The notes: generated by a model not told the origin, from the sequence alone. A stretch of DNA of 64,000 nucleotides from Candidatus Thorarchaeota archaeon (GCA_016933575.1 JAFGAR010000040.1:1-64000); one strand, 5' to 3'. Numbered from the stretch's first letter, positions 5,014 to 16,705 are shown. Made by a program: numbers and translations.

Positions 5014-7279
5014 TCAGCAGAAGCTGGTCACGGTCCTCATGTTTTATGTCATCAAGATACTGCGCAGGTATCAAACTCTCAAATGCGCGCTCACAGAGAT
5101 TCGCATATGCTTTTGGATCATACCTTGTCGATTCATCGAAAAGCTCCAACGCCTTCACACGCCGCAGAGGATTCTCTGAGGAAGCATCTGTCATGATATA
5201 CCGAACTCTCTGTCCAGCGTGAAGTTCTTTCCCTGCTTTTACGAGCTGCTGAGCGACTACCGCTGCCCTTGATGTTGCACGGTACTCGTGTGGTTCTCTA
5301 GTCAGATTTGAATTCAGAATGAGGTCTCTGAGATCTACATCATTCTCATAGAGCCGATCTATGTAGCTCTCACAGACTCTGAATGCATCTGGAATCTGTT
5401 GTATAAAACCCGCCCTGTCGTTGGCGCAGGCAAGCTTCTTGATCATTGCCATCTGACAGTCTCCAACATATAGACAGGTATCTCGTCTCCTTGTTTCGAT
5501 TCCCCTAGTCTTTATGCCCCCATTTCTATACACCCCATAATACCGATTCAAAGGGGCAATAGACTGATGCAGACGCGAAGATGGAATGACCATCCACTTG
5601 TAGACACCTTTAGCTGACATTTTGATGTTCGTCTTCTCAGTTACTCGTTCACAGAAATCTACAATGGTATCATACTTGACTTTGCCATCTTGAGTTCGTA
5701 CCCAGACCGAGTCCACGATGCCATGCAACATCTCAAGTCCCATTGCTTCTCCAATCTCCTGGGTTTCAAGCATGACCTCCCGCGCGAGAGCTGTGACAGC
5801 GGTATGTGCCTCAACTCTCCCAAATTTTGCATTCTTGAATCCAAGATACCCAAAACAGGATACCAGAACACCCTTCAGAGTGTTCTGAATGAACTCGTAT
5901 TTTTTGTTGTTCTCTCCCTCATCTATTAATCTCTTGAAATCACTACGTCTATTCACCAGTAGCTCCAGTGACTTTGATACGATACCCCTTCTCCGAGTGC
6001 AGATCCTGAAACTCTGCTGCGGAATCTGAATGCAATATTCATGATCATATGGACAGTCTGTTCTTGTACAGATGGTCTCAGGACTGATATTTCTAGTGAC
6101 CATCAATGTTGGATACATCGACGAAAAATCACACTCTGCAATATCTTCATAGATATCCGGTCGCGGCTGGAAGATGAGACCACCTCTATCGATTGCGGTG
6201 AGCTCTGTGACAGATTTGAGAAACTCTGGATTGCGTTTCACTGGTGGAATTAGGATGTCCATCTTGAAGGCATTGTAGAACTGCACAGAGGCATTCACTG
6301 CTCCAATTGTCATACGTGAAACTCGTTGTGGTCGTCCAAGAGCAAGTCTACAGCTCTCCACCACTCCTTCCAGTCCCACTGGAGAGTAGAAATGCATCCC
6401 TGTCTTCCCTCGGTCGATGTGTATTCTCCCATTCAACATGACCTGTGTGCCTGACCTGTAGACAATCTGATTGTATTGCCAAAACGACTGTGCATCTCTA
6501 TGGATGACCTGTAACGGGGTTCCATCCCGCGATAATACCAGTTGTAATCCATTGACCTTGGCTCGTATACTGAGGTATCTAAAGAGGCTCTCATCGCCGC
6601 CTCTACTGACTATCACATCAGGATCTATTTCGTTGATGGCACTCTGAAAACGTCGGAGAATCTCTCCCTCATCTTCATCCTCAATGTGTATTACTCCATC
6701 CCTATGATAGACTACTATGTGATGTATCCTGTCTTCCATCCTTGGAAAAATTTGCTCGGTGGAGATGAGCACCTCAAAGTCCATCATATCAAGGTCTGGA
6801 ATATCGTACCTTGGATCCTCTCGTCTATCAAGGCTCGCAATCTTGACAACCTCATCACCCCTCCGTTCAAATTCTACACGTCCAAAGGCAAACAGATCTT
6901 TGGCTATGAAGAGCTGCTGTACAGGGTCTATGTCTGCATGGAACACAGTAGCCCCGGGAAGTCGCTCGAGGTCTTTTACAACTTTATCCATCACGTCTGG
7001 GGTGGTAAACACCTGCAGGACCGGGGTCTTCTCCTCATCATAGACGCTGGTGTACTTGGATATGATGATTGCATCTTCAATATCTGGATGTTCGAGGACT
7101 GTGCGTAGAATATCTGTTTCTGTCCAGTCCCTGCTTTTGATTATATCTGTACTCACAAAAATCGATGGATGGAATCCATGATAGGTATACCCCTTTGTTC
7201 TCCCATCTGTTTTGATCCATAGGGTGAATGCGTGTTTCTCTTGATCCACACAGGCATCCAAGAGCCATCCAGTCATCAT
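5003..7279 (-). CDS. polB2: Family B DNA polymerase, PolB2 group
   Basis: Motif A DFSSMYP, motif B KGVLVSCFGYLG, variant motif C HGIVDS (in place of YGDTDS), RGIETRRRD; arCOG07300-like gene upstream. Confidence 0.88.
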   Translation of the reverse strand: MMTGWLLDACVDQEKHAFTLWIKTDGRTKGYTYHGFHPSIFVSTDIIKSRDWTETDILRTVLEHPDIEDAIIISKYTSVYDEEKTPVLQVFTTPDVMDKVVKDLERLPGATVFHADIDPVQQLFIAKDLFAFGRVEFERRGDEVVKIASLDRREDPRYDIPDLDMMDFEVLISTEQIFPRMEDRIHHIVVYHRDGVIHIEDEDEGEILRRFQSAINEIDPDVIVSRGGDESLFRYLSIRAKVNGLQLVLSRDGTPLQVIHRDAQSFWQYNQIVYRSGTQVMLNGRIHIDRGKTGMHFYSPVGLEGVVESCRLALGRPQRVSRMTIGAVNASVQFYNAFKMDILIPPVKRNPEFLKSVTELTAIDRGGLIFQPRPDIYEDIAECDFSSMYPTLMVTRNISPETICTRTDCPYDHEYCIQIPQQSFRICTRRRGIVSKSLELLVNRRSDFKRLIDEGENNKKYEFIQNTLKGVLVSCFGYLGFKNAKFGRVEAHTAVTALAREVMLETQEIGEAMGLEMLHGIVDSVWVRTQDGKVKYDTIVDFCERVTEKTNIKMSAKGVYKWMVIPSSRLHQSIAPLNRYYGVYRNGGIKTRGIETRRRDTCLYVGDCQMAMIKKLACANDRAGFIQQIPDAFRVCESYIDRLYENDVDLRDLILNSNLTREPHEYRATSRAAVVAQQLVKAGKELHAGQRVRYIMTDASSENPLRRVKALELFDESTRYDPKAYANLCERAFESLIPAQYLDDIKHEDRDQLLLTTQ

Positions 7280-7554
7280 CAGGGGGTGTTCTCCTCAATC
7301 TTCTCCTCTATATTGTGAACCTTTCTCCCTAACTCCTCAATCTCTTCTTGCAATCTCAGAACTGCAGATAGTAGGACTACCTCCGTGATACGCGGGGTTG
7401 GCAGCATGGTTCCAGCGTCTGCGAGACTCCTTGCATGGTCGAATATCTTGTCGAAGGTCTCTCTCTGAGCTGGTCTGAGGGTGCGCCGGAACTCTTTCCA
7501 GCGTGTTTCCTCAATCCTGATACCATCTCTGAATGTTCGGACTGTACGTCCCAT
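7279..7554 (-). CDS. Small helical PolB2-associated protein (arCOG07300-like)
   Basis: MGRTVRTFR...WKEFRRTLR signature; overlaps the polB2 start by 1 nt. Confidence 0.8.
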   Translation of the reverse strand: MGRTVRTFRDGIRIEETRWKEFRRTLRPAQRETFDKIFDHARSLADAGTMLPTPRITEVVLLSAVLRLQEEIEELGRKVHNIEEKIEENTP

Positions 7555-7697: not shown

Positions 7698-8165
7698 CTA
7701 TAATTCATCCTTGGTCGCAGCCCGGTATTGGGTGTCTTTTCCATAATCAAATGATGTCATTTTCTTTGGTGTTACGATCAGACCAATCCAAGTAGTGAGT
7801 TTGAACAGACCTCTCTGGTATACTACTGCCTCGTCATGAGGCATATATCTCTCGAAAATTCTAACTGCCAAATCCTCTATATCATCCCTCTTAATCTCAG
7901 CCTCTCCATAGATGATGACTGCTCGTGTGTGTGGTGCTTCGATGTCTATTAGCAATGTAACATTCTTGTTTCTCTTGATATTTCTCACACGTCGGCTTTT
8001 GGCTGCTGCTCCTATGAGGAACTTGCCATCACTATATTTGAACCAGACTGGAACTGCATGGATTGTCCCATTCTTGTTCAAGCTACAAAACCGTGCAATT
8101 TTTGCTTCTTGAAAGAATGACTCCATCTCTTCTTCTGTCATTGGAGGCGGTTGTGTGTAAGACAT
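7698..8165 (-). CDS. Pyridoxamine 5'-phosphate oxidase-like split-barrel flavin/F420-binding protein
   Basis: GTIHAVPVWF and RVRNIKRNKNVTLLID pattern; start moved to ATG 8165. Confidence 0.8.
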   Translation of the reverse strand: MSYTQPPPMTEEEMESFFQEAKIARFCSLNKNGTIHAVPVWFKYSDGKFLIGAAAKSRRVRNIKRNKNVTLLIDIEAPHTRAVIIYGEAEIKRDDIEDLAVRIFERYMPHDEAVVYQRGLFKLTTWIGLIVTPKKMTSFDYGKDTQYRAATKDEL

Positions 8166-8322
8166 AGGTAAAACTTCTTTTTGTGGTATAATCCATTCCT
8201 CATATTCTTTTGCCACACTAAAATCATGCATTAGATTCAATCGGCATAGACTCAAATACTGGAAAACTAATTAGCGCCTTAGTGTCCAGAGAGAGGATAC
8301 CACATCATTTAGGGTGCGTAAA

Positions 8323-8889
8323 ATGGTCACTGCACTATTCAAGGTCGTACTCATGGGAGACGGAAGCGTCGGAAAGACCAGTCTCCGCAGGACCTACATG
8401 GGAGAAGGTTTCAGAGCTAACTATATGATCACTATAGGCGCTGACTTCGCTGTCAAAAAGATGCAACTTGAAGGCGGTCATGATGTGAGCATACAAATTT
8501 GGGACCTTGCCGGGCAAGAACACTTCAAGAGTGTACGTTCTACCTTCTACAGAGGCGCTCAGGGAGCCCTAGCAGTCTACTCCACTGTGGAGCGGGGGTC
8601 CTTTGATAACCTGATGAACTGGGTCGATGAGTGCTGGACCAATGCAGGGAAGAAGATACCCATTGTTCTCATTGCCAATAAGATAGACCTTCGAGACCAG
8701 TTCAAGGATAATCCTGTCATGGCGAAGACCATAGTGACCACTGAAGAAGGTAAGAATCTTGCAGAGAAAATTGCCAGTCACGGTGTCATTACATCCTTCC
8801 TTGAAACAAGTGCGAAAACTGGAACCAATGTTGAAGCAGCATTTCTTGAACTAGCCATTAAGATTCTCGAAGCTGGCGGACTGACCTAG
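8323..8889 (+). CDS. Rab-like small GTPase
   Basis: G1 GDGSVGKTS, TIGADF, WDLAGQE, FYRGA, NKID, ETSAK; no C-terminal prenylation Cys. Confidence 0.93.
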   Translation: MVTALFKVVLMGDGSVGKTSLRRTYMGEGFRANYMITIGADFAVKKMQLEGGHDVSIQIWDLAGQEHFKSVRSTFYRGAQGALAVYSTVERGSFDNLMNWVDECWTNAGKKIPIVLIANKIDLRDQFKDNPVMAKTIVTTEEGKNLAEKIASHGVITSFLETSAKTGTNVEAAFLELAIKILEAGGLT

Positions 8890-8893
8890 TAGA

Positions 8894-10156
8894 TTAGAGA
8901 TTATTATCCTCAATAAGTCCTAAATCAGTCTGTAATGTTTCGAAGAGTTCACTCGCAGCACTCTGTTCTATTTCAGGGTCTTCTGCAAAGATATCAATTC
9001 TTAACTTAGAGAGTTTATCACCAATATTTCCTACAACAGTGATTGTAACGCCAAGGTATTTTCCACTGAACTTGCCTTCTGCTATTCCAGCAATAACGCC
9101 CATGAATGCACCATCTCTCTCGATGGTCTCATTCTGAAAGACATGAAGATTCTTTCTCTCAAATAGGTCGCCCATCACTTCGAAGAGCTCACTGGCTCTA
9201 CTGAGCATAGCATGCTCTCGGTTCCATTGTTTCATATCCGATTTCAAACGAATGAACTCATCCATAGTCATCTCGACTGGAGTGTATTGTGTGAATAATG
9301 AACGGACAAAGACGTTTCCTGCCTTTGCTGATAGATCCTCGCCTGAGTCATCGATTAGTTGTACAGATGTTATTATTTCACCCTCGATGCAATCCTGCGT
9401 TACTGAGAATCCAAAGATAAGTGCGCCTGAGTCTCCTGGTTCTATTGTTTCAATCACCTGAGTTAATTCGTCAACTGGTTCTAGACCATCTCTTGGGTAC
9501 GCAAGTATCTTCACAGTGACCTCATGGATTGGTTTCTTACCTTCATTCTTGATAGTGATTCCGTACTCAAGAGTTTCTGGTGTTGTTTCGTAATCATTGA
9601 TGACGAGTACATCATCCGTTTCTCGTAGTGGAATGCCATCGGTATCAAAGAGTAATTCTACAGTATTTTCTCTTGGTTCCAAAACGAGGTTTCTTTCAGG
9701 GATGTCTCTCCCATACTTTTTCAACCACTCCAGACAATAATCAATGGTATCTTTGACATAGTCATTATTATCATTGGTATATCTCTCTAGGATAGGAATG
9801 GCATCAAGTCGTCGAGTATAAGTTAACATTCCAGCTGCAAGTGCCCGTACAATCCAATTCTCATCTACAAGTGCAATCTCGAGTGACTCGAAAGCATCGA
9901 CTCCATACTGACCCAATCTACAGATAGCTAGGATTCGTTGTTCTTCATCCCCGGTTAAGGCTGCATCACGACAAGCTTGAATACTTGTTATACCCTCAAG
10001 CATTCTCTCTATCTTATCATCGCTTGATTTGAATGCCTTCTTTATCGCTTTTCGAAAACGGCTAAGTGTTTCTCCTCCACCCAATGACTCTGATAGTGCT
10101 CTATCGGACTTCTTGGACACGGAATACCCTCGGAAAGTCACCCCTCCTTGCACCAT
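8894..10156 (-). CDS. HEAT-repeat protein with a C-terminal Ig-like (GAE-type) plus platform appendage, adaptin/COP/BBS-like
   Basis: PBS-lyase-type HEAT repeats (LVDENWIVRALAA, DNNDYVK); beta-sandwich (YGITIKNEG..IHEVTVKI..IETIEPGDS); TPVEMTMDEF linker; terminal LRIDIFAED-helix. Confidence 0.6.
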   Translation of the reverse strand: MVQGGVTFRGYSVSKKSDRALSESLGGGETLSRFRKAIKKAFKSSDDKIERMLEGITSIQACRDAALTGDEEQRILAICRLGQYGVDAFESLEIALVDENWIVRALAAGMLTYTRRLDAIPILERYTNDNNDYVKDTIDYCLEWLKKYGRDIPERNLVLEPRENTVELLFDTDGIPLRETDDVLVINDYETTPETLEYGITIKNEGKKPIHEVTVKILAYPRDGLEPVDELTQVIETIEPGDSGALIFGFSVTQDCIEGEIITSVQLIDDSGEDLSAKAGNVFVRSLFTQYTPVEMTMDEFIRLKSDMKQWNREHAMLSRASELFEVMGDLFERKNLHVFQNETIERDGAFMGVIAGIAEGKFSGKYLGVTITVVGNIGDKLSKLRIDIFAEDPEIEQSAASELFETLQTDLGLIEDNNL

Positions 10157-10248
10157 TTAATCATTGCTACGATACTACATGTGAATGTGGTATTCACAAG
10201 ACTTTTACGCTACCTAATGCTCGGCGGCATATCAATCAGGCCTTGTGA

Positions 10249-11382
10249 GTGAACTCCATGGAGAACGATGAACAGAACATCTTCTTGAAACCAACAGTAC
10301 TCAAGCCACAGGCTGAACATGGCTCTGAGATAACCCGCCGTTTTGCGATGAACAAAGTCGGGCGAATGTTCGCAGCAGCTCTTCAGGATAAGAGTGTGCG
10401 ACTCTATGCGGCAGAAGATTGCACAGAGATGCAGCGAATGCAGGATGAGTTCCTCAGCACATCTTTAGCTTTCAGTCCCAAGGGCGATATTGTCGCAACC
10501 GGAACCGTTGAACGCGTTGTCAAGCTCTGGGACATACGTACTGCTGAATGCATAGCTACCCTGGAGGGCCACACATATCCAGTACTCTCTTTATCCTTCT
10601 CCCCTGATGGCGATAAGATTGTTTCAGGAAGTGGTGATACAACGCTCATTATCTGGGACATTGAGAATAGGTCAAAAATAAGGCAAATGAAAGGTCACGG
10701 ATTCTATGTAGTGACTGTTGATTGGGATCCACAGGGAAGTCGTGTTGTATCAGGTTCCGTTGATGCCAACATCTGTGAATGGGATGTAGCCACGGGTGAT
10801 ATGATCGCTCGACATGATGACCATCGAGCTGCGGTGAGAGAGGTCCGTTTTAGTCCTGATGGTTCTCGATTGGTTTCTGGCTCTTCTGATTTGACCTTGT
10901 TGTTATGGAATGCTTCATACAAACCGATGAAGGTAGAACAGATTCTCCAAGCTCATGAGAGCGAGGTTCGGGCACTTGCATTTAGCACCGATGGTCATTA
11001 TCTTGCCTCAGGTTCTGGAGATAGAACTCTCTATGTCTGGGATATGGAAACACTTACCGTGAAAGGCGAGGCTTCAACAATGGGTGAGATTGATGGTATT
11101 GAATGGTACCCTTCAAGACACTCATTCCTAACTGCAGATGGGACTGGCGCAATCATTCGTTGGGATGTTGAAGATATGCTTGCAATGCTAAAACCATTCC
11201 AAGACCTTTTGACCGAGATTGAAGCAGCAAATGACCCCTCTCGCAGAGACGAATTTGTTGAGAAGTTTGAGAACTTATCCGCGCAGCATGACGAAGAGAC
11301 CCTTCAGACAAAACGAATGTTCTATGTCGTCTGGCAGTGTAAACGAGCTCTAGGTCTGTTGAAAGGTACAACTAGCAAGTGA
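10249..11382 (+). CDS. WD40 beta-propeller protein with a short helical C-terminal tail
   Basis: About 7 GH..(FSPDG)..SGS.D.T..IWD repeats. Confidence 0.95.
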   Translation: MNSMENDEQNIFLKPTVLKPQAEHGSEITRRFAMNKVGRMFAAALQDKSVRLYAAEDCTEMQRMQDEFLSTSLAFSPKGDIVATGTVERVVKLWDIRTAECIATLEGHTYPVLSLSFSPDGDKIVSGSGDTTLIIWDIENRSKIRQMKGHGFYVVTVDWDPQGSRVVSGSVDANICEWDVATGDMIARHDDHRAAVREVRFSPDGSRLVSGSSDLTLLLWNASYKPMKVEQILQAHESEVRALAFSTDGHYLASGSGDRTLYVWDMETLTVKGEASTMGEIDGIEWYPSRHSFLTADGTGAIIRWDVEDMLAMLKPFQDLLTEIEAANDPSRRDEFVEKFENLSAQHDEETLQTKRMFYVVWQCKRALGLLKGTTSK

Positions 11383-11389
11383 TACTTGA

Positions 11390-11938
11390 TTAGAATGCAG
11401 GTTCTCTGGGGGTTCCTTTGGCTTCCTTAATCATCCGCTTACAGAGTTTTACATACGCTTCTTCCACATTCTCCCCAGTGAGTGCACTTGATTCAACATA
11501 GAGGAATTCATGCTCTTTAGCGTAAGCCTTTCCCTCTTTCGTTGATACTGCTCTACTCTCTTCCAAATCCACCTTATTGGCAACAACAACAAGAGGTATC
11601 TCTTTACCAACATTCGTGAAGGTCTCATCTTTCCAATTGTCAATATTAAGGAAGGTTCGACGTCGAGTGACATCATAGAGTAAGAGACCTCCCCTAGCCC
11701 CTCTATAGAAGCCTTGGCGCACGAACTCGAATCGTGGCTGCCCCGCCAGATCCCAACATTGCAGTGTAACCAGTGCATCAATATCAGGAATCTCAAGGCG
11801 CTTGACTGCGAAATCTGCACCAATCGTTCTCTTGTAATCCGCATCAAAGTAGTCTTGAGTGAACCTTGTGGTCATCGCTGTCTTGCCTACTGCACCGTCG
11901 CCAAGCATGACTATTTTGAAACGGTACTCAGCAGACAT
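11390..11938 (-). CDS. Rab-like small GTPase
   Basis: GDGAVGKT, TIGADF, WDLAGQ, FYRGA, LLYDVT, NKVD, ESSALTG. Confidence 0.93.
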   Translation of the reverse strand: MSAEYRFKIVMLGDGAVGKTAMTTRFTQDYFDADYKRTIGADFAVKRLEIPDIDALVTLQCWDLAGQPRFEFVRQGFYRGARGGLLLYDVTRRRTFLNIDNWKDETFTNVGKEIPLVVVANKVDLEESRAVSTKEGKAYAKEHEFLYVESSALTGENVEEAYVKLCKRMIKEAKGTPREPAF

Positions 11939-12070
11939 CAGATACTACTCCGTATATACTCAACAGGGCATCGTGATTTAAATCTCTACTGTGCACAGGG
12001 ACAGTCTCAGATGATTTAATAGGGAACCATATAATCCGTGATGACACTGTAGGAATGATGGTGAGACCAA

Positions 12071-12454
12071 ATGGATCGACCTGATTATCGCGAGCTGCCC
12101 AAGATTCTTGAGACCATGAATAAAGAGGGTGGATATACTGCTTCAGTTCTTGCACGAGGCAATGGTCTTCTCGTCACATCAGCAACTTCTCCAACCACAA
12201 ACCAAGACGTTGTAGCTGCAATGTGTGGCATGATCGCCGACGTTGCTGAGCGTGTTCGAAAAGAGCTCTACCTTGGGACAATTCGTGATATAAGCCTACG
12301 ATGTGCTGATGGCAAAGCAGTCTTCAAGAGAGTAGGGTCCCGCGGTGATGATGTTCTCATTATTGGGGCTATCATGCAGCGAGATGTCCGCTATCATGCA
12401 CGTTCCATTGGCAAGGCCACCACACGAATTAGACGCCTTATGGGGTACAAATGA
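12071..12454 (+). CDS. Roadblock/LC7 (MglB-like) protein
   Basis: ASVLARGNGLLVTS..DVVAAM helix-strand pattern; 127 aa; divergent from a GTPase gene. Confidence 0.8.
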   Translation: MDRPDYRELPKILETMNKEGGYTASVLARGNGLLVTSATSPTTNQDVVAAMCGMIADVAERVRKELYLGTIRDISLRCADGKAVFKRVGSRGDDVLIIGAIMQRDVRYHARSIGKATTRIRRLMGYK

Positions 12455-12557
12455 ACAACCTCTTCTAGCTCTTTTTATGTCATACATATCCTCAAAACAT
12501 TCAAGTGAATACTATTTCACTTGAGGGCATCGAACCTCAACTCTAGGAGCGCATGAT

Positions 12558-12881
12558 TTGAAAGAGGACCATGAACCTGATTCAGAGGTAGAGGATGACC
12601 AACGAATCGAGGTTGTTCTCTTTAAATCTGATACATGCGCTTTCTGTCCTAGAGCTGAGGAAGTTATTCGAGAAGCAATAGGTGACTTTGGAGCCGAGAC
12701 CTTCAAACTGGTGATCATCAATGTCAGTGAGAATCCCGAGGCTGCTGAGGAGTATGGCATATTTGCCTTACCCACAGTTATGATTGGTGGAATATCAATA
12801 ACGGGTATTCCTGAGCCTGAGATGTTGATGAAGATGGTACTTGGTGCGAAGGTCACTAAAAACAAGAAGAGTGTGTCTTAA
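12558..12881 (+). CDS. Thioredoxin-fold protein (CAFC) with a KaiB-like C-terminal half
   Basis: CxxC motif; NPEAAEEYGIFALPT; stop overlaps the start of the KaiC-like gene (TAATG). Confidence 0.8.
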   Translation: MKEDHEPDSEVEDDQRIEVVLFKSDTCAFCPRAEEVIREAIGDFGAETFKLVIINVSENPEAAEEYGIFALPTVMIGGISITGIPEPEMLMKMVLGAKVTKNKKSVS

Positions 12882-13627
12882 TGAGCGAGAATTCAATCGA
12901 ACGGGTAAAGACTGGCATCCCAGGTCTCGATGAACTGATTGAGGGTGGATTTCCGAGAGGCGATACTATCCTCATTGCAGGCAAGGCTGGTACAGGTAAG
13001 AGTATCCTTGCTACTCAGTTTATCTACAAAGGTGTAACTGAGTATAATGAACCGGGGGTCTTTGTTACCTTAGAGGAGCCACCTCACCTAATTAAGAGAA
13101 ATATGTTAAGATTTGGCATGGACCTTGAGAAACTAGAGAAAGAAGGAAAGATATCAATTGTCGACCTCTCCCCATCAAAGGAGGCTACTCCTATCACTGT
13201 TGGAGAATTTCCGAGCTTCGATCTCTCAGGATTGCAAGCCATAATCTTGAATCATATTAAGAAGATAAATGCAAAACGAATTGTTCTTGACACACTTTCT
13301 ATTATGGCATACAAATTCAGAAGTCGTGATATTCTTCGTGAGGAGTTTTTCAAGCTAGCTGCAAGTATCACCAGGACTGGATGCACACTCTTGCTAACAA
13401 GTGAGATTCCTGCCGAAGATAGTGGGCTTGGAGTATTTGATATCGAAGCATTTTTAGCTTCTGGCGTTATTGTTCTTTACAACGAGAAGATTAGCGACAC
13501 ATCCCGCTCTCGCTCCATCGAGGTTCTGAAGTTACGAGGATCGAAGCATAGTTCAAGAATACATTCAATGAGAATCACAGACGAAGGTATAAGAGTCTGG
13601 CCTGGCGAAATTAGTCCTGGAAGCTAA
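12881..13627 (+). CDS. KaiC/RAD55-like single-domain RecA-family ATPase
   Basis: TGIPGLDELIEGGFP, Walker A GKAGTGKS, catalytic LEE, RIVLDTLS, VLKLRGSKH. Confidence 0.9.
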   Translation: MSENSIERVKTGIPGLDELIEGGFPRGDTILIAGKAGTGKSILATQFIYKGVTEYNEPGVFVTLEEPPHLIKRNMLRFGMDLEKLEKEGKISIVDLSPSKEATPITVGEFPSFDLSGLQAIILNHIKKINAKRIVLDTLSIMAYKFRSRDILREEFFKLAASITRTGCTLLLTSEIPAEDSGLGVFDIEAFLASGVIVLYNEKISDTSRSRSIEVLKLRGSKHSSRIHSMRITDEGIRVWPGEISPGS

Positions 13628-13637
13628 ATACTAGGAA

Positions 13638-14351
13638 GTGAAGACGACGAACAGCTCTGGAGGATCAACACAGGAACCTGCAAGGGCAAGACCAATGATC
13701 AGTGATCTTGTTAAGTTTGGTCAATTGACACAGGTCTCGTACATGCTCGTGGGTCCTCTTGGGTCTGGAAAGACCACATATGCTGAGGCATTTCTTGCTG
13801 AGGGTATTGAACAGGGATTCCCTGCTGTCTTTGTCACCACAGATGTGTCACCCCGAGTCATTCGTAATGATATGAGTAGACATGGATGGGCAATAGAATC
13901 TCAAGAAGCATCAGGTCAGTTTGTTTTCATTGATGGATATTCCGAGCGGATGGGAGCGCCAAAGACTGGTTCCACATGGTCTCTTGGAAAAGTGGATGAT
14001 ATCAGTGAGCTTGGCATTGTTCTTTCAGAGGTTCTTGACAAACTAGTTGTTGCCCGAGTTGTAATAGATAGTCTCTCCACTTTGATACTTCATTCAAATC
14101 CTGTAACAATGCCACGCGCAGTTCAAAGATTGAGTGGTAGAATTACACAGAGTTCACACAGCATTATGTATGTCCTTGAGGAAGGAGTACATGATGAGAA
14201 GACCTACGCAACTTTCTCATATCTTGCAGATGCTGTACTAAGATTCAGAATCGAAGACACTGGAACAATCCCAAAGCATCAAGTCAGAATGGAAAGGATG
14301 AGAGGAACTGAGACTTCTCGTGAATGGCATGACTTCATAATTGAAAGATAG
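13638..14351 (+). CDS. Second KaiC/RAD55-like ATPase domain, catalytic glutamates lost
   Basis: GPLGSGKT, VTTDVSP in place of xxEE, RVVIDSLS, RMRGT. Confidence 0.85.
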   Translation: MKTTNSSGGSTQEPARARPMISDLVKFGQLTQVSYMLVGPLGSGKTTYAEAFLAEGIEQGFPAVFVTTDVSPRVIRNDMSRHGWAIESQEASGQFVFIDGYSERMGAPKTGSTWSLGKVDDISELGIVLSEVLDKLVVARVVIDSLSTLILHSNPVTMPRAVQRLSGRITQSSHSIMYVLEEGVHDEKTYATFSYLADAVLRFRIEDTGTIPKHQVRMERMRGTETSREWHDFIIER

Positions 14352-14407
14352 TTTCCTGTGAAAGTTTTAAAGCGGTAACGATTTTTCCCTATCGAGAGGA
14401 GAGTCCT

Positions 14408-16705
14408 TTGGAATCGATACTTCTTACTACATTGCGAGATGTACTGTGTGCATCTCTGTCACTCGATGATGGACTCTCAGCTATTCAAAACATCACAACT
14501 CGCAACAATGAAGAATCAGAACTTTTGTATGACATCGCTCGCTCGATTGAAGAAATCATTCTGAGGCGTCCTGGACTCGCAAGTGCAAAATTGACCCAGT
14601 TAATTGTGAGGTTGTCTTTCAACGAGAACAGAATACTTCCCGAATTGTTAATTCTTCTCGATACCCGTTATACAAACAGTCACAAACGCTCCGAGTGCGA
14701 ACTCCTGCCTGATTTAGAGGCTCTGCCTACACTTGTTGATATTCTTGGCGAACTCTCTCAAGCAATTACATCTACAATTCGTCTTAATCTGCGCCCTGTC
14801 CTTCCATTTCTGACAGATGAAGTATCTTTGACATTGAATGCCATTTTCGATCGTAGGCATAATGGCACAACAATTCTTGCACTTCATGAAGTACATTATT
14901 TGGCTTGGATCTTGATTGAATCCGGATTCTTCGAAGGAGCTGAGCTTTTACTCAACCGAGTTATCGAAATCTCGCGAGAGGTTGGTCTAAAGGAATTGGT
15001 CTTTGAAGCAACCTTTGACTATGCTTGCGTACTAACAGAATTGGGTCTCTACGACCAAGCCCGTGATATACTAAATAAATTAGAGAAAGAAGCACGTACA
15101 AACAAAGACACTCTTCGACTAGCTGAAGTCACATTACAACTTGGTGTAAACGAGACTCGTGATGATTCAATTTCTTACACAGTAGCACGAAAGATTGGTG
15201 ACAAAGCGGCTGAGTTGTATGATTTGGCTCTGAAAAATGGGCTTATCAACAGAGACGAAGTTGGAATAGCCCATCTTGTGATTGGTTCTAGTATATTAGC
15301 CAATGGCTGGCGAGAGGGTGTTTCGGAGGCTGTTGATCAACTAGAGTTAGGTTTGAAGCTCTATGAAGCCATTGATAATAGAAATCCAATTCAACAATCT
15401 CATGTCTATCGAACATTATGTGGATTAGGTTTTGCTTACGGACTGATGACGGATCATGATAGTATGAGTAAAGCTATCGAGTATCTCTCTCAAGCAAGAA
15501 GTATTCTTCATGAGGTTGGCAATGATTTTCCCGATAACGAGCTAGAACTTGCTGTCTTGGAGAACACAATAGGTTGGCTCTGTCTGTCTACTGAATCTGA
15601 TGAGTTCTGGAGTATGGGCATTGAATCTTTCAAGAAAGCATTAAAAATACGGGAAAAACACTGGCAATTGGGGAGTGTTTCAGATCTCGAACTCCTTGGA
15701 ACTCAAATGGGTCTTGCTCTTTCATCGATGCGGTTGTCTGAACGAGCTGATTCTGAAGAATCACAGGAACCAATCCGTGACATTCTTGTCCAGTACATTC
15801 CCCTTTTTCCCACCGACAGACGTGCCTATGAAGAAATCGCCATTGCGATTTATGATATCGTTTGGCTCATCGCACGACACGGAAGCACAATTCCTCCTAG
15901 ACTGAGGCGCTTGTTTGAGGATATTGATAGGATGCTCGTCGATGCCCCAGAAGCATCAGTCTTCATTGAGAGTGTATCATTAGTTGTTCCTTATTTAGAG
16001 CGGTCATGGTCCGTGCTTCTTGAGCGTTCAAAGAAAATGGCAGGTTCTGATAGCGATCTTGCAGACATTGCCAAACTTACATCTGCTCTTTCGATTATGA
16101 AGATGAACCTTGATTCGTTGAATCTTGAACTTGGTTCACGAATCCAACCCGCTGTTGACGATGAACTCTTACGTGTAGACCCTCTCTTAGCTCAATACTG
16201 GCTTGGAGAGACCTATCTCCTCCAGACAATACGGGCATTCTATAGTAACAAAGACTACTCCGAACTAGCAACTGGTCTGTATGAAGCAGCTATTGCCTTT
16301 GGTGATGTGTTGAATATTGAACCGGAATTCAACGAGTCTGTTGAGTTCATTAAAGCCACATCTGCCTCGATATCTCAAGTCTTACGGAGATTCTCTTTAA
16401 CCCTAGAAAATCAGTATGCAGCATACATTGACAGAGCTAAGATGACTGGAACGCCCCCAGTTGTCGATGAGAGTCAGTACAGCTTTATTCTCTCCGACGA
16501 CTGGCTTGGTCTAATCAAAATCGCTAATGCATACTTGCAGATGGTAGAGCAATCAGAAATTGTTGAGGCACAACCGTATCTCAATGCTGTGTTCTCTAAT
16601 ATCAATCGTGCATTGAAGATGATTGATTCTGTATCACTTATAGACCGAAGAATTCTCGCTCCTATGGGTCTCGTAATGAACAGACGTTTCTATTTACGAA
16701 TGTGA
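14408..16705 (+). CDS. Large all-alpha TPR-like solenoid protein
   Basis: Recurring amphipathic helix pairs (YACVLTELGLYDQA, LGFAYG..KAIEYL..A, IGWL..GIESFKKAL). Confidence 0.65.
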   Translation: MESILLTTLRDVLCASLSLDDGLSAIQNITTRNNEESELLYDIARSIEEIILRRPGLASAKLTQLIVRLSFNENRILPELLILLDTRYTNSHKRSECELLPDLEALPTLVDILGELSQAITSTIRLNLRPVLPFLTDEVSLTLNAIFDRRHNGTTILALHEVHYLAWILIESGFFEGAELLLNRVIEISREVGLKELVFEATFDYACVLTELGLYDQARDILNKLEKEARTNKDTLRLAEVTLQLGVNETRDDSISYTVARKIGDKAAELYDLALKNGLINRDEVGIAHLVIGSSILANGWREGVSEAVDQLELGLKLYEAIDNRNPIQQSHVYRTLCGLGFAYGLMTDHDSMSKAIEYLSQARSILHEVGNDFPDNELELAVLENTIGWLCLSTESDEFWSMGIESFKKALKIREKHWQLGSVSDLELLGTQMGLALSSMRLSERADSEESQEPIRDILVQYIPLFPTDRRAYEEIAIAIYDIVWLIARHGSTIPPRLRRLFEDIDRMLVDAPEASVFIESVSLVVPYLERSWSVLLERSKKMAGSDSDLADIAKLTSALSIMKMNLDSLNLELGSRIQPAVDDELLRVDPLLAQYWLGETYLLQTIRAFYSNKDYSELATGLYEAAIAFGDVLNIEPEFNESVEFIKATSASISQVLRRFSLTLENQYAAYIDRAKMTGTPPVVDESQYSFILSDDWLGLIKIANAYLQMVEQSEIVEAQPYLNAVFSNINRALKMIDSVSLIDRRILAPMGLVMNRRFYLRM

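What the first reader, a model, noticed from the sequence alone, without database searches (positions are those of the whole stretch)
8323..12454. Proto-coatomer-like cluster: Rab, HEAT+appendage, WD40, Rab, roadblock
Seen: five consecutive genes, arranged as two divergent pairs (HEAT-appendage/WD40, 92-nt gap; Rab/roadblock, 132-nt gap) plus a second Rab. Known: eukaryotic coats (COPI, AP/clathrin, BBSome) combine small GTPases, beta-propellers, alpha-solenoids and appendage domains, and roadblock proteins regulate small GTPases (MglB, Ragulator). Inference: an archaeal GTPase-controlled coat/adaptor module with its parts clustered. Alternating orientation means this is not one operon, so linkage is only suggestive.
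Basis: partly seen in the sequence, partly recalled or inferred. Interest (0 to 1): 0.82.

Follow-up and report, generated by a model that had tools for sequence, protein, structure and literature searches.

The report
Thorarchaeal Rab, propeller, mini-adaptin, roadblock neighbourhood
The five genes are real and correctly typed, including a small protein with an adaptin-like "ear", but comparison of about 90 related genomes shows a mosaic of separate gene units rather than one coat-forming module, and the crystallised "Thor-Rab" GTPase pairs best with the roadblock and KaiC-like genes next to it.

Summary
The locus holds two Rab-like GTPases, a HEAT-hinge-appendage protein, a 7-bladed WD40 propeller and a roadblock protein, with the stated gaps.

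The appendage call holds up structurally: alpha-adaptin ear Z 16.1 over 210 residues, plus beta2-adaptin and gamma-COP ears. It is not new. The SMTZ1-45 ortholog KXH73349 is already listed in arCOG15284, "adaptin appendage domain".

The "one proto-coat module" reading is not supported.
- The gene order is kept across Thorarchaeaceae, but so are unrelated flanking genes (LarC-like, PolB, KaiC).
- The HEAT-appendage gene occurs in only 7 of 16 genera, always in the same slot, with at least 4 gain or loss events.
- WD40 is missing in part of one genus.
- WD40, Rab2 and KaiC orthologs were not found in 191 genomes of other Asgard families.

Where the block breaks, roadblock stays with the downstream KaiB-like and KaiC-KaiC genes. 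In the sister family, Rab2-roadblock-KaiB-like-KaiC-KaiC form one co-directional string. Rab2 is the ortholog of crystallised Thor-Rab (7EZB).

Best reading: a GTPase-roadblock switch tied to KaiC-type ATPases, beside a Rab1-WD40 pair and an optional adaptor-like hub. The main value is a testable partner for Thor-Rab.

The parts
8314..8889 (+). Rab1: Rab-like small GTPase (191 aa from GTG 8314; ATG at 8323). P-loop GDGSVGKT, switch II DLAGQ, no C-terminal Cys.
   Evidence: Pfam Ras 5.8e-47. Best solved relatives are Thor-Rab 7EZB (8e-39), then Rab1, Rab8 and Rab11. 72-96% identical across 16 genera. Kept in genomes that lack WD40.
8894..10156 (-). HEATx: 420 aa (public gene aa). Disordered N-terminus 1-51, about 3 PBS/alphaRep-type HEAT-like repeats at 57-150, disordered hinge 153-175, adaptin-type appendage (beta-sandwich 178-293 + platform 298-411).
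   Evidence: AF2 model; Foldseek; VIA-align; Atlas. The profile matches only alphaRep/MTH187-type HEAT by sequence. SMTZ1-45 ortholog KXH73349.1 is listed in arCOG15284. Present in 7 of 16 genera at 29-62% identity.
10249..11382 (+). WD40: seven-bladed beta-propeller (aa 11-309) with a conserved C-terminal helical tail (310-368).
   Evidence: Pfam WD40 1.2e-49. AF2 pLDDT 92.6. Generic WDR5-like fold matches. Single-copy ortholog in 16 of 17 genera of the family, not found elsewhere in the phylum sample.
11390..11938 (-). Rab2: ortholog of the crystallised 'Thor-Rab' (PDB 7EZB/7EZD/7EZE), 182 aa, with the switch-I Arg37 noted in that paper.
   Evidence: phmmer to 7ezb_A 1.1e-90 over residues 1-175. 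Paper PMC10933270. Arg37 conserved in at least 90% of family orthologs. Reciprocal best hit to the sister-family gene.
12071..12454 (+). Robl: Roadblock/LC7 (MglB-like) protein, 127 aa. A different paralog from the solved Thor-RB.
   Evidence: Pfam Robl_LC7 1.1e-7. 7yh1 only 7e-6. Stays with Trx-KaiC when separated from Rab2. Directly downstream of the Rab2 ortholog in the sister family.
12558..12881 (+). Thioredoxin-fold / KaiB-like protein, 107 aa. This is the real gene here, not the antisense 117-aa ORF.
   Evidence: Pfam Thioredoxin_3 6.5e-9, KaiB 4e-5; the antisense ORF has no family. Conserved next to Robl in G097 and G025.
12881..14351 (+). Two KaiC-like ATPase genes (12881-13627 and 13638-14351), co-directional with roadblock.
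   Evidence: Pfam KaiC 3.7e-72 and 3.1e-30. 66-93% identity across the order.
14408..16705 (+). TPR-containing 765-aa protein that closes the co-directional string in Thorarchaeaceae. Absent from the sister-family string.
   Evidence: Pfam TPR matches. Collinear in all family loci. Not in G025, where an EF-G-like gene follows on the other strand.

Best explanation
The locus is a composite of at least three units. It is not a single coat module.

Unit A. Rab2, the ortholog of crystallised Thor-Rab, belongs with the roadblock protein, the downstream KaiB-like thioredoxin-fold protein and two KaiC-like ATPases. In this family a TPR protein is added. The likely mechanism follows MglA/MglB and Rag/Ragulator: a roadblock dimer docks on the switch regions of the GTPase and tunes GTP hydrolysis or exchange. 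This GTPase switch is wired, as input or output, to a KaiC-type ATPase signalling unit.

Unit B. Rab1 and the seven-bladed WD40 propeller are adjacent and co-directional wherever the HEAT gene is absent. They are probably a GTPase with its effector or scaffold.

Unit C. HEATx carries three HEAT-like repeats, a disordered hinge and an adaptin-type appendage. It is an optional protein-interaction hub sitting between Rab1 and WD40 in some genera. The other genes persist without it.

Shown: domain identities, fold matches, orthology to Thor-Rab, and the presence/absence and linkage patterns. Inferred: every physical interaction and the signalling role.
For: Typing.

Unit A:
- Rab2 matches 7EZB at 1.1e-90.
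- The Rab2/Robl divergent pair is kept in 15 of 16 genera sampled.
- In G097 (96% complete) Rab2 and Robl lie on different contigs, and Robl remains 120 nt upstream of Trx-KaiC1-KaiC2-TPR.
- In sister-family genome G025 and two close assemblies, Ras-Robl-Trx/KaiB-KaiC-KaiC are co-directional, with gaps of 46-76, 0 and 26-32 nt. Reciprocal best hits to Rab2 and Robl hold.
- 3 of the 6 roadblock genes in this genome lie within 2 kb of a Ras gene.
- Arg37 is conserved in family Rab2 orthologs. Paper PMC10933270 likens it to the MglA arginine finger.

Unit B:
- Rab1 and WD40 are directly adjacent on one strand, with gaps of 88-147 nt in eight genera and about 450 nt in the ninth (g22).
- This is the only one of 4 WD40 genes in the genome that lies beside Ras genes.

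Unit C is optional:
- The HEATx ortholog occurs in 7 genera only, always in the same slot and orientation. A tree of flanking proteins requires at least 4 state changes.
- A weak relic of the hinge region sits in the g18 spacer.
- Rab1, Rab2 and Robl persist without HEATx, and without WD40.
Against: - No interaction among any of these proteins has been shown or confidently predicted.
- The operon form of unit A rests on one poorly sampled sister lineage: G025 plus near-identical assemblies.
- In Thorarchaeaceae, Rab2 is divergent from Robl. In g23 and g27 an extra 1.2-1.5 kb lies between them.
- The switch-I Arg is Ser in the G025 ortholog.
- The whole 13-kb region is unusually collinear, so even the Rab1-WD40 and WD40-Rab2 adjacencies could be neutral.
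- The other two Ras-roadblock pairs in this genome have no KaiC neighbour, so the KaiC link is specific to this locus.
- The HEATx gene, where present, is never separated from WD40 or Rab2. Some functional tie is therefore not excluded.
Confidence: 0.5

Rival explanations
1. One reading: the five proteins form one GTPase-controlled adaptor/coat module. The HEAT-appendage protein acts as adaptor, the WD40 as outer-coat propeller, the two Rabs as recruiters and roadblock as their regulator.
For: The domain inventory matches coat logic. HEATx has the adaptin order solenoid-hinge-appendage, with strong ear matches. HEATx and WD40 are always divergent neighbours where both exist. The consensus hinge carries an acidic L-L-D-T-D stretch. 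I recall this as reminiscent of a clathrin box, and I did not test it.
Against: - HEATx is absent from 9 of 16 genera that keep the rest.
- WD40 is absent from part of g25, which keeps HEATx.
- The solenoid has only about 3 repeats, of prokaryotic alphaRep type rather than Adaptin_N.
- The propeller has no solenoid.
- Roadblock segregates with KaiC genes.
- The set was not found outside one family.
- The locus has no longin/mu/sigma-type partners.
Confidence: 0.08
2. Neutral juxtaposition: none of the five products work together. The arrangement is inherited gene order in a slowly rearranging part of Thorarchaeaceae chromosomes that happens to be rich in abundant Asgard gene families.
For: The collinear block also includes LarC-like, PolB, orf91 and the KaiC-TPR genes at 44-68% identity. 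Ras genes are abundant, with 26 matches. Orientation alternates. Each gene can be lost or displaced independently.
Against: The Rab2-Robl(-Trx-KaiC-KaiC) link survives into the sister family, where every other neighbour differs. Ras-roadblock adjacency recurs three times in this genome. WD40 genes are rare (4), and this one is flanked by two Ras genes.
Confidence: 0.2
3. One larger signalling system. Rab1, WD40, Rab2, roadblock, KaiB-like, KaiC x2 and TPR act together as a two-GTPase, propeller- and TPR-scaffolded, KaiC-driven switch. This is loosely comparable in parts to Rag-Ragulator-GATOR. HEATx is an accessory adaptor.
For: All of these except HEATx are present and contiguous in 15-16 genera. 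WD40-Rab2 are never separated where both exist. Scaffold-type partners (WD40, TPR) flank switch-type partners.
Against: The sister family has only the Rab2-Robl-Trx-KaiC-KaiC part. Its Rab1-like gene sits elsewhere, between DUF134 and DUF2299 genes. WD40 is lost in several g25 genomes that keep all the others. G097 splits the set between Rab2 and Robl.
Confidence: 0.2

Closest known systems
Large subunits of AP adaptor complexes and COPI F-subcomplex (alpha/beta/gamma-adaptin, beta-/gamma-COP)
   Same: Same order of parts as HEATx: helical repeats, a disordered hinge, then a bipartite appendage (Ig-like sandwich + TBP-like platform). Ear matches reach Z 13.6-16.1 over 207-214 residues. Whole-chain Foldseek hits to COPI chains. 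Atlas structural neighbours include beta-COP clusters.
   Different: The trunk has about 95 residues (about 3 repeats) instead of about 600, and by sequence it is the prokaryotic alphaRep/PBS type. No Pfam adaptin or COP family is hit. No mu/sigma partners lie nearby. Identity to the ears is 8-17%.
[quoted passage not shown] 2024, PMC10936438)
   Same: The SMTZ1-45 ortholog of HEATx, KXH73349.1, is listed in this arCOG. The genome holds many paralogs with the same appendage, often with C-terminal Zn ribbons as described for the Meth_adaptin proteins.
   Different: This member carries HEAT repeats plus a hinge. I did not find that architecture discussed in the main text. It is not in an ESCRT neighbourhood: the nearest Snf7 match is about 147 kb away. 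Eme et al. 2023 (PMC10307638) state that AP domains in Asgards were found 'not fused to each other'.
MglA-MglB (bacterial Ras-like GTPase with roadblock-dimer GAP) and Rag-Ragulator
   Same: A small GTPase is encoded beside a Roadblock/LC7 protein. Rab2 keeps the switch-I arginine that the Thor-Rab paper compares with MglA Arg53.
   Different: The GTPase is Rab-like rather than MglA-like by structure (paper). The pair is joined to KaiB-like and KaiC-like genes. Binding and GAP activity are untested.
Thor-Rab, PDB 7EZB (Tran et al. 2024, PMC10933270)
   Same: Rab2 is its ortholog: E 1.1e-90 over residues 1-175, and tblastn gives 78% identity to the SMTZ1-45 locus. The crystallised protein KXH73347.1 differs by two in accession number from KXH73349.1, the HEATx ortholog.
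   Different: I did not find its gene neighbourhood discussed in the paper, which states that genome layout rarely helps to match GTPases with regulators. Here the layout does suggest a partner.
Protocoatomer proteins (beta-propeller followed by alpha-solenoid: clathrin, COPI B-subcomplex, Sec31, nucleoporins)
   Same: A propeller gene and a solenoid-containing gene are neighbours.
   Different: They are separate genes that are lost independently. The propeller has only a 60-residue helical tail, and the solenoid has only three repeats.

Membership tests
AP/COPI large subunit (adaptin family) | Long N-terminal Adaptin_N-type alpha-solenoid trunk (about 500-600 aa) | tested here: not met
   Only a HEAT_2 match at 1.1e-4, below cut-off, aa 70-137. 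Helical repeats span only 57-150 in the model. The profile hits alphaRep/MTH187-type HEAT proteins and no adaptin.
AP/COPI large subunit (adaptin family) | Flexible hinge between trunk and appendage | tested here: met
   Residues 153-175 have pLDDT below 50, between two confident domains.
AP/COPI large subunit (adaptin family) | Bipartite appendage: Ig-like beta-sandwich plus alpha/beta platform | tested here: met
   1w80 Z 16.1 over 210 aa; 3h1z Z 13.8 over 207 aa; 1r4x Z 13.6 over 214 aa; 2mj7 platform Z 13.7. Foldseek E from 5e-10 to 6e-12.
AP/COPI large subunit (adaptin family) | Sequence-level match to appendage families (Alpha_adaptinC2, B2-adapt-app_C, COP-gamma_platf) | tested here: not met
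   No such Pfam hit at E <= 0.1. No adaptin or COP chain in the PDB profile search at E <= 1.
AP/COPI large subunit (adaptin family) | Assembly with a second large subunit and medium/small (mu/sigma) subunits | not tested
   No such genes are among the typed neighbours. No genome-wide search or binding test was done.
arCOG15284 archaeal adaptin-appendage proteins | Ortholog listed in the arCOG | tested here: met
   P0101 = KXH73349.1. It is listed in Table S1 of PMC10936438. P0101 is 51% identical to P0002.
arCOG15284 archaeal adaptin-appendage proteins | Encoded in an ESCRT gene neighbourhood | tested here: not met
   Snf7 matches lie at C5:159647 (about 147 kb away) and on C131. The Vps4_C matches are on other contigs.
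Protocoatomer | Beta-propeller followed by an alpha-solenoid in one polypeptide | tested here: not met
   The WD40 model shows 7 blades plus a helical tail at 310-368. HEATx has no propeller.
Protocoatomer | Propeller and solenoid components co-occur as obligate partners | tested here: not met
   WD40 occurs without HEATx in 9 genera. HEATx occurs without WD40 in G073 and G082.
MglA/MglB-type GTPase-roadblock pair | Ras-superfamily GTPase encoded next to a Roadblock/LC7 protein, conserved across lineages | tested here: met
   Divergent pair across Thorarchaeaceae. Co-directional with a 46-67 nt gap in the sister family.
MglA/MglB-type GTPase-roadblock pair | Intrinsic switch-I arginine in the GTPase | tested here: met
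   Arg37 is present in P0004 and in at least 90% of family orthologs. It is Ser in the G025 ortholog.
MglA/MglB-type GTPase-roadblock pair | Roadblock dimer binds the GTPase and changes its GTPase rate | not testable with these tools
   Needs binding and phosphate-release assays.
Eukaryotic Rab family | Closest solved relatives are Rabs | tested here: met
   After Thor-Rab, the best matches are Rab1A/B, Rab8, Rab11 and Rab14, at 1e-31 to 1e-39.
Eukaryotic Rab family | C-terminal cysteine prenylation motif | tested here: not met
   Neither protein has a Cys near its C-terminus (translations). This agrees with PMC10933270.

The most novel reading that the evidence does not exclude
In some Thorarchaeaceae, the HEAT-hinge-appendage protein is a true miniature adaptor. 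One of the neighbouring Rab-like GTPases, in its GTP form, recruits it. It then uses its hinge or ear to engage the neighbouring WD40 propeller. That would be a minimal prokaryotic adaptor-propeller pair, prefiguring AP/clathrin or COPI, that was gained once and lost repeatedly.
Probability: 0.07. Interest if true: 0.85.

Novelty: new variant of a known kind. Interest (0 to 1): 0.42.

Why it matters
Matching Asgard small GTPases to their regulators is an acknowledged problem. The Thor-Rab structure paper says genome layout rarely helps. Here the already purified and crystallised Thor-Rab has a conserved roadblock neighbour, which in the sister lineage sits in the same co-directional string. 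This gives a direct, cheap biochemical test of an Asgard GTPase-roadblock pair, and an unexpected link to KaiC-type ATPases.

The HEAT-hinge-appendage protein shows that solenoid and ear can be fused in an Asgard protein. However, its short prokaryotic-type HEAT part and its repeated loss argue against treating it as evidence for a coat. The result also warns that synteny within a slowly rearranging family is not evidence of a module.

Tried and rejected
- Complex prediction of WD40 (alignment A3) with HEATx (alignment A2). The verdict was 'no answer', score 0.00 against a mark of 0.32, and no controls were run. This is neither support nor evidence against binding.
- Sequencing runs. No RNA holder is listed for 8000-12600.
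- Paralog contexts. I looked at the neighbourhoods of HEATx appendage paralogs in this genome (C156 tandem array, C45, C138, C74, C88) for GTPase, WD40 or roadblock neighbours as independent support. None was seen.
- KaiC genes beside the other two Ras-roadblock pairs of the genome: none.
- The WD40 fold search gave only generic WDR5-like or designed propellers, which says nothing on function.
- Literature. 'Thorarchaeota' + 'protocoatomer' returned nothing. The Makarova 2017 KaiC-hub paper (PMC5717392) is not held, so any roadblock-KaiC link reported there could not be checked.
- The antisense ORF 12512-12865 (-), which I first used as a marker ('orf117'), is not the real gene. The + strand thioredoxin-fold ORF is.

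Full report
**What is there.**
The window belongs to a Candidatus Thorarchaeota genome. Names given by public sources to homologs say so, and the genome has 26 Ras-family matches in 3.47 Mb. Pfam types them as follows:
- Gene 1: Ras family, 5.8e-47.
- Gene 2: a sub-threshold HEAT_2 match only.
- Gene 3: WD40, 1.2e-49.
- Gene 4: Ras family, 2.5e-50.
- Gene 5: Roadblock/LC7, 1.1e-7.

The divergent gaps of 92 and 132 nt are correct. Neighbours on the left are a Ni-insertion (LarC-like) gene, a family-B DNA polymerase, a small conserved ORF and a PNPOx-like gene. Neighbours on the right are a thioredoxin-fold/KaiB-like gene, two KaiC-like ATPases and a 765-aa TPR protein, all on the + strand like roadblock.

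**The HEAT-appendage protein.**
I built an AlphaFold2 model from 33 orthologs (mean pLDDT 77.6). It shows:
- a disordered N-terminus (1-51);
- about three helical repeats (57-150);
- a disordered linker (153-175);
- a beta-sandwich (178-293);
- an alpha/beta platform (298-411).

An exhaustive structural comparison puts the alpha-adaptin appendage first (1w80, Z 16.1, rmsd 3.7 A, 210 residues). The beta2-adaptin ear (Z 13.8), the AP-4 beta platform (Z 13.7) and the gamma-COP appendage (Z 13.6) are also among the top six, interleaved with artificial alphaRep HEAT-repeat proteins that match only the repeat region. In Foldseek, COPI, AP2 and BBSome chains take 17 of the top 19 places. Atlas structural neighbours include eukaryotic beta-COP clusters.

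Three qualifications apply.
- The helical part is short. By sequence profile it is the prokaryotic alphaRep/MTH187-type HEAT-like repeat, and no adaptin or COP chain is matched by sequence.
- The appendage is already catalogued. [quoted passage not shown] 2024. That paper describes adaptin-appendage domains widely in archaea, including Asgard ESCRT-I-like proteins.
- This gene is not in an ESCRT neighbourhood.

What may be new is the fusion of repeats + hinge + appendage. Eme et al. [quoted passage not shown] A profile search of 1.84 billion representatives found the full-length architecture in only about nine 50%-identity clusters. The appendage alone occurs in many more proteins with many other N-termini. 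These include propeller + appendage forms and Zn-ribbon forms arranged in tandem in this genome.

**The GTPases and roadblock.**
Gene 4 (Rab2) matches PDB 7EZB, "Thorarchaeota Rab", at 1.1e-90 over residues 1-175. The crystallised protein is KXH73347.1 on LRSL01000056. This points to Thor-Rab coming from this same cluster.

Rab2 keeps Arg37, which the paper compares with the intrinsic arginine finger of MglA. The residue is conserved in at least 90% of family orthologs. I did not find the neighbourhood discussed in the paper, which concludes that genome layout rarely helps to match GTPases with regulators.

Gene 1 (Rab1) is a different paralog (7EZB 8e-39) and is very conserved: 72-96% identity across the family. 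Neither GTPase has a C-terminal cysteine. The roadblock protein is only distantly related to the solved Thor-RB (7e-6).

**The synteny test.**
Within the genus, all five genes are collinear in about 19 genomes, but so is everything from the LarC-like gene to the TPR gene. Across the family (17 genera, 87 genomes) the same 13-kb block persists even though PolB is only 51-68% identical. Collinearity here is therefore the background, not a signal. The informative events are the exceptions.
1. A HEATx ortholog (29-62% identity) is found in 7 genera only. In 9 genera Rab1 and WD40 are directly adjacent on the same strand. The spacer is 88-147 nt in eight genera and about 450 nt in g22.
2. On a tree of four flanking proteins (2265 columns, FastTree, midpoint root), HEATx presence needs at least 4 changes, with the relevant nodes supported at 0.93-1.0. 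The gene is always in the same slot and orientation, so repeated loss is more likely than repeated gain. A weak relic of the hinge region in the g18 spacer points the same way: 15/38 identities, and 1 of 40 shuffles does as well.
3. WD40 is absent from several g25 genomes, including single-contig G073, which keep HEATx, Rab2, roadblock and a displaced Rab1.
4. In most g25 genomes sampled, Rab1 lies about 15 kb or more from HEATx.
5. In G097 (g29), Rab2-WD40-HEATx-Rab1 are on one contig, and roadblock is on another, still directly upstream of Trx-KaiC1-KaiC2-TPR. In g23 and g27 an extra 1.2-1.5 kb separates Rab2 from roadblock.

No pair shows co-loss.

**Outside the family.**
Orthologs of WD40 (E <= 1e-70), Rab2 (<= 1e-58) and KaiC1 (<= 1e-70) were not found in 191 sampled genomes from 26 other Asgard families. 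Rab2 and KaiC1 do have orthologs in the single sister-family genome G025.

In G025 the genes for a Ras-family GTPase, roadblock, a Trx/KaiB-like protein, KaiC and KaiC lie on one strand, with gaps of 46, 76, 0 and 26 nt. They are flanked by unrelated genes. The G025 GTPase and roadblock are reciprocal best hits of Rab2 and Robl. Independent gene calls in two near-identical assemblies show the same string. These assemblies are one lineage, not independent support. There is no WD40, HEATx or TPR gene there. The Rab1-like gene of G025 sits elsewhere, between DUF134 and DUF2299 genes.

This is the strongest piece of linkage evidence in the study. It ties Rab2 and roadblock to the KaiB-like and KaiC-like genes, not to the propeller or the adaptor-like protein. 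Within this genome, 3 of the 6 roadblock genes lie within 2 kb of a Ras-family gene. By my arithmetic, about 0.03 per gene would be expected from gene density.

**Interpretation.**
The locus is best read as a mosaic.
- Unit A: a Thor-Rab/roadblock switch associated with a KaiB-like/KaiC-like ATPase unit.
- Unit B: a Rab1-WD40 pair.
- Unit C: an optional adaptor-like hub, HEATx.

The mechanism proposed for unit A is that a roadblock dimer docks on the switch regions and modulates hydrolysis or exchange, coupled to KaiC-type signalling. This is inferred from the MglA/MglB and Rag/Ragulator paradigms as summarised in PMC10933270 and from gene linkage. No binding has been shown.

The WD40 protein is a plain seven-bladed propeller with a conserved 60-residue helical tail. 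Its role as effector or scaffold for Rab1 and/or Rab2 is a guess based on adjacency. It is the only one of four WD40 genes in the genome that sits beside Ras genes.

**Novelty and score.**
Rab-like GTPases, roadblock proteins, WD40 proteins and adaptin-appendage proteins are all known in Thorarchaeota, and the appendage assignment of this very protein family is published. The coat-module reading fails its own synteny test beyond one family, and its parts are lost independently. Three things are worth keeping:
- a concrete candidate partner for a structurally characterised Asgard GTPase;
- the unexpected GTPase-roadblock-KaiB/KaiC linkage;
- the fused HEAT-hinge-appendage architecture.

I rate this a new variant of known kinds, with moderate interest.

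Noticed in passing
window 12558-16705: Thioredoxin-fold/KaiB-like gene (its stop overlaps the KaiC start), two KaiC-like ATPases and a TPR protein form a co-directional string with roadblock. The string minus TPR is kept in the sister family together with a Rab2 ortholog. The antisense 117-aa ORF (12512-12865) is spurious.
   Followed up: partly
window 7698-8255 (-): The PNPOx-like gene between orf91 and Rab1 gave no match in any of the 47 related loci examined. The orf91-Rab1 spacer is a hotspot for insertions of 0.2-5.8 kb in other genomes.
   Followed up: no
window 7279-7554 (-): A 91-aa ORF directly upstream of PolB, sharing one base with it, has no Pfam family. It is conserved at 45-77% identity in every family locus, so it is probably a real small gene tied to PolB.
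   Followed up: no
G000:C156:59743-65290 (L067:5744-11291): Tandem array of four 348-393-aa paralogs carrying the same appendage-like domain, two with C-terminal Zn-ribbon matches, interrupted by an EamA transporter gene. Further paralogs of 718-986 aa lie on C45, C138, C74 and C88.
   Followed up: partly
protein P0204 (metagenomic, 607 aa): An N-terminal beta-propeller with weak BBS7/BBS2-like Pfam matches is fused to the appendage-like domain (residues 275-554). This layout resembles BBSome subunits.
   Followed up: no
HEATx hinge, aa about 160-175 (window about 9630-9680, - strand): The otherwise disordered hinge holds a conserved stretch (consensus E-N-P-x-E-I-L-L-D-T-D-x-I-P-L). From memory, its L-L-D-T-D core resembles the clathrin-box pattern in beta-adaptin hinges. 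I did not test this, and the resemblance may be superficial.
   Followed up: no
L056:7851-7997 (genus g18): The Rab1-WD40 spacer holds a weak minus-strand match to HEATx residues about 159-194 (15/38 identities; 1 of 40 shuffles as good). It may be a relic of a deleted HEATx gene.
   Followed up: partly
G071:C192, G077:C28, G082:C49 (genus g25): About 15 kb lies between Rab1 and HEATx in this genus. I did not examine its content.
   Followed up: no
G000:C197:6565-7250 and G000:C64:189451-191858: Two further Ras-family/roadblock gene pairs in the same genome. One has an 84-nt gap. In the other the roadblock domain is inside a 317-aa ORF.
   Followed up: no
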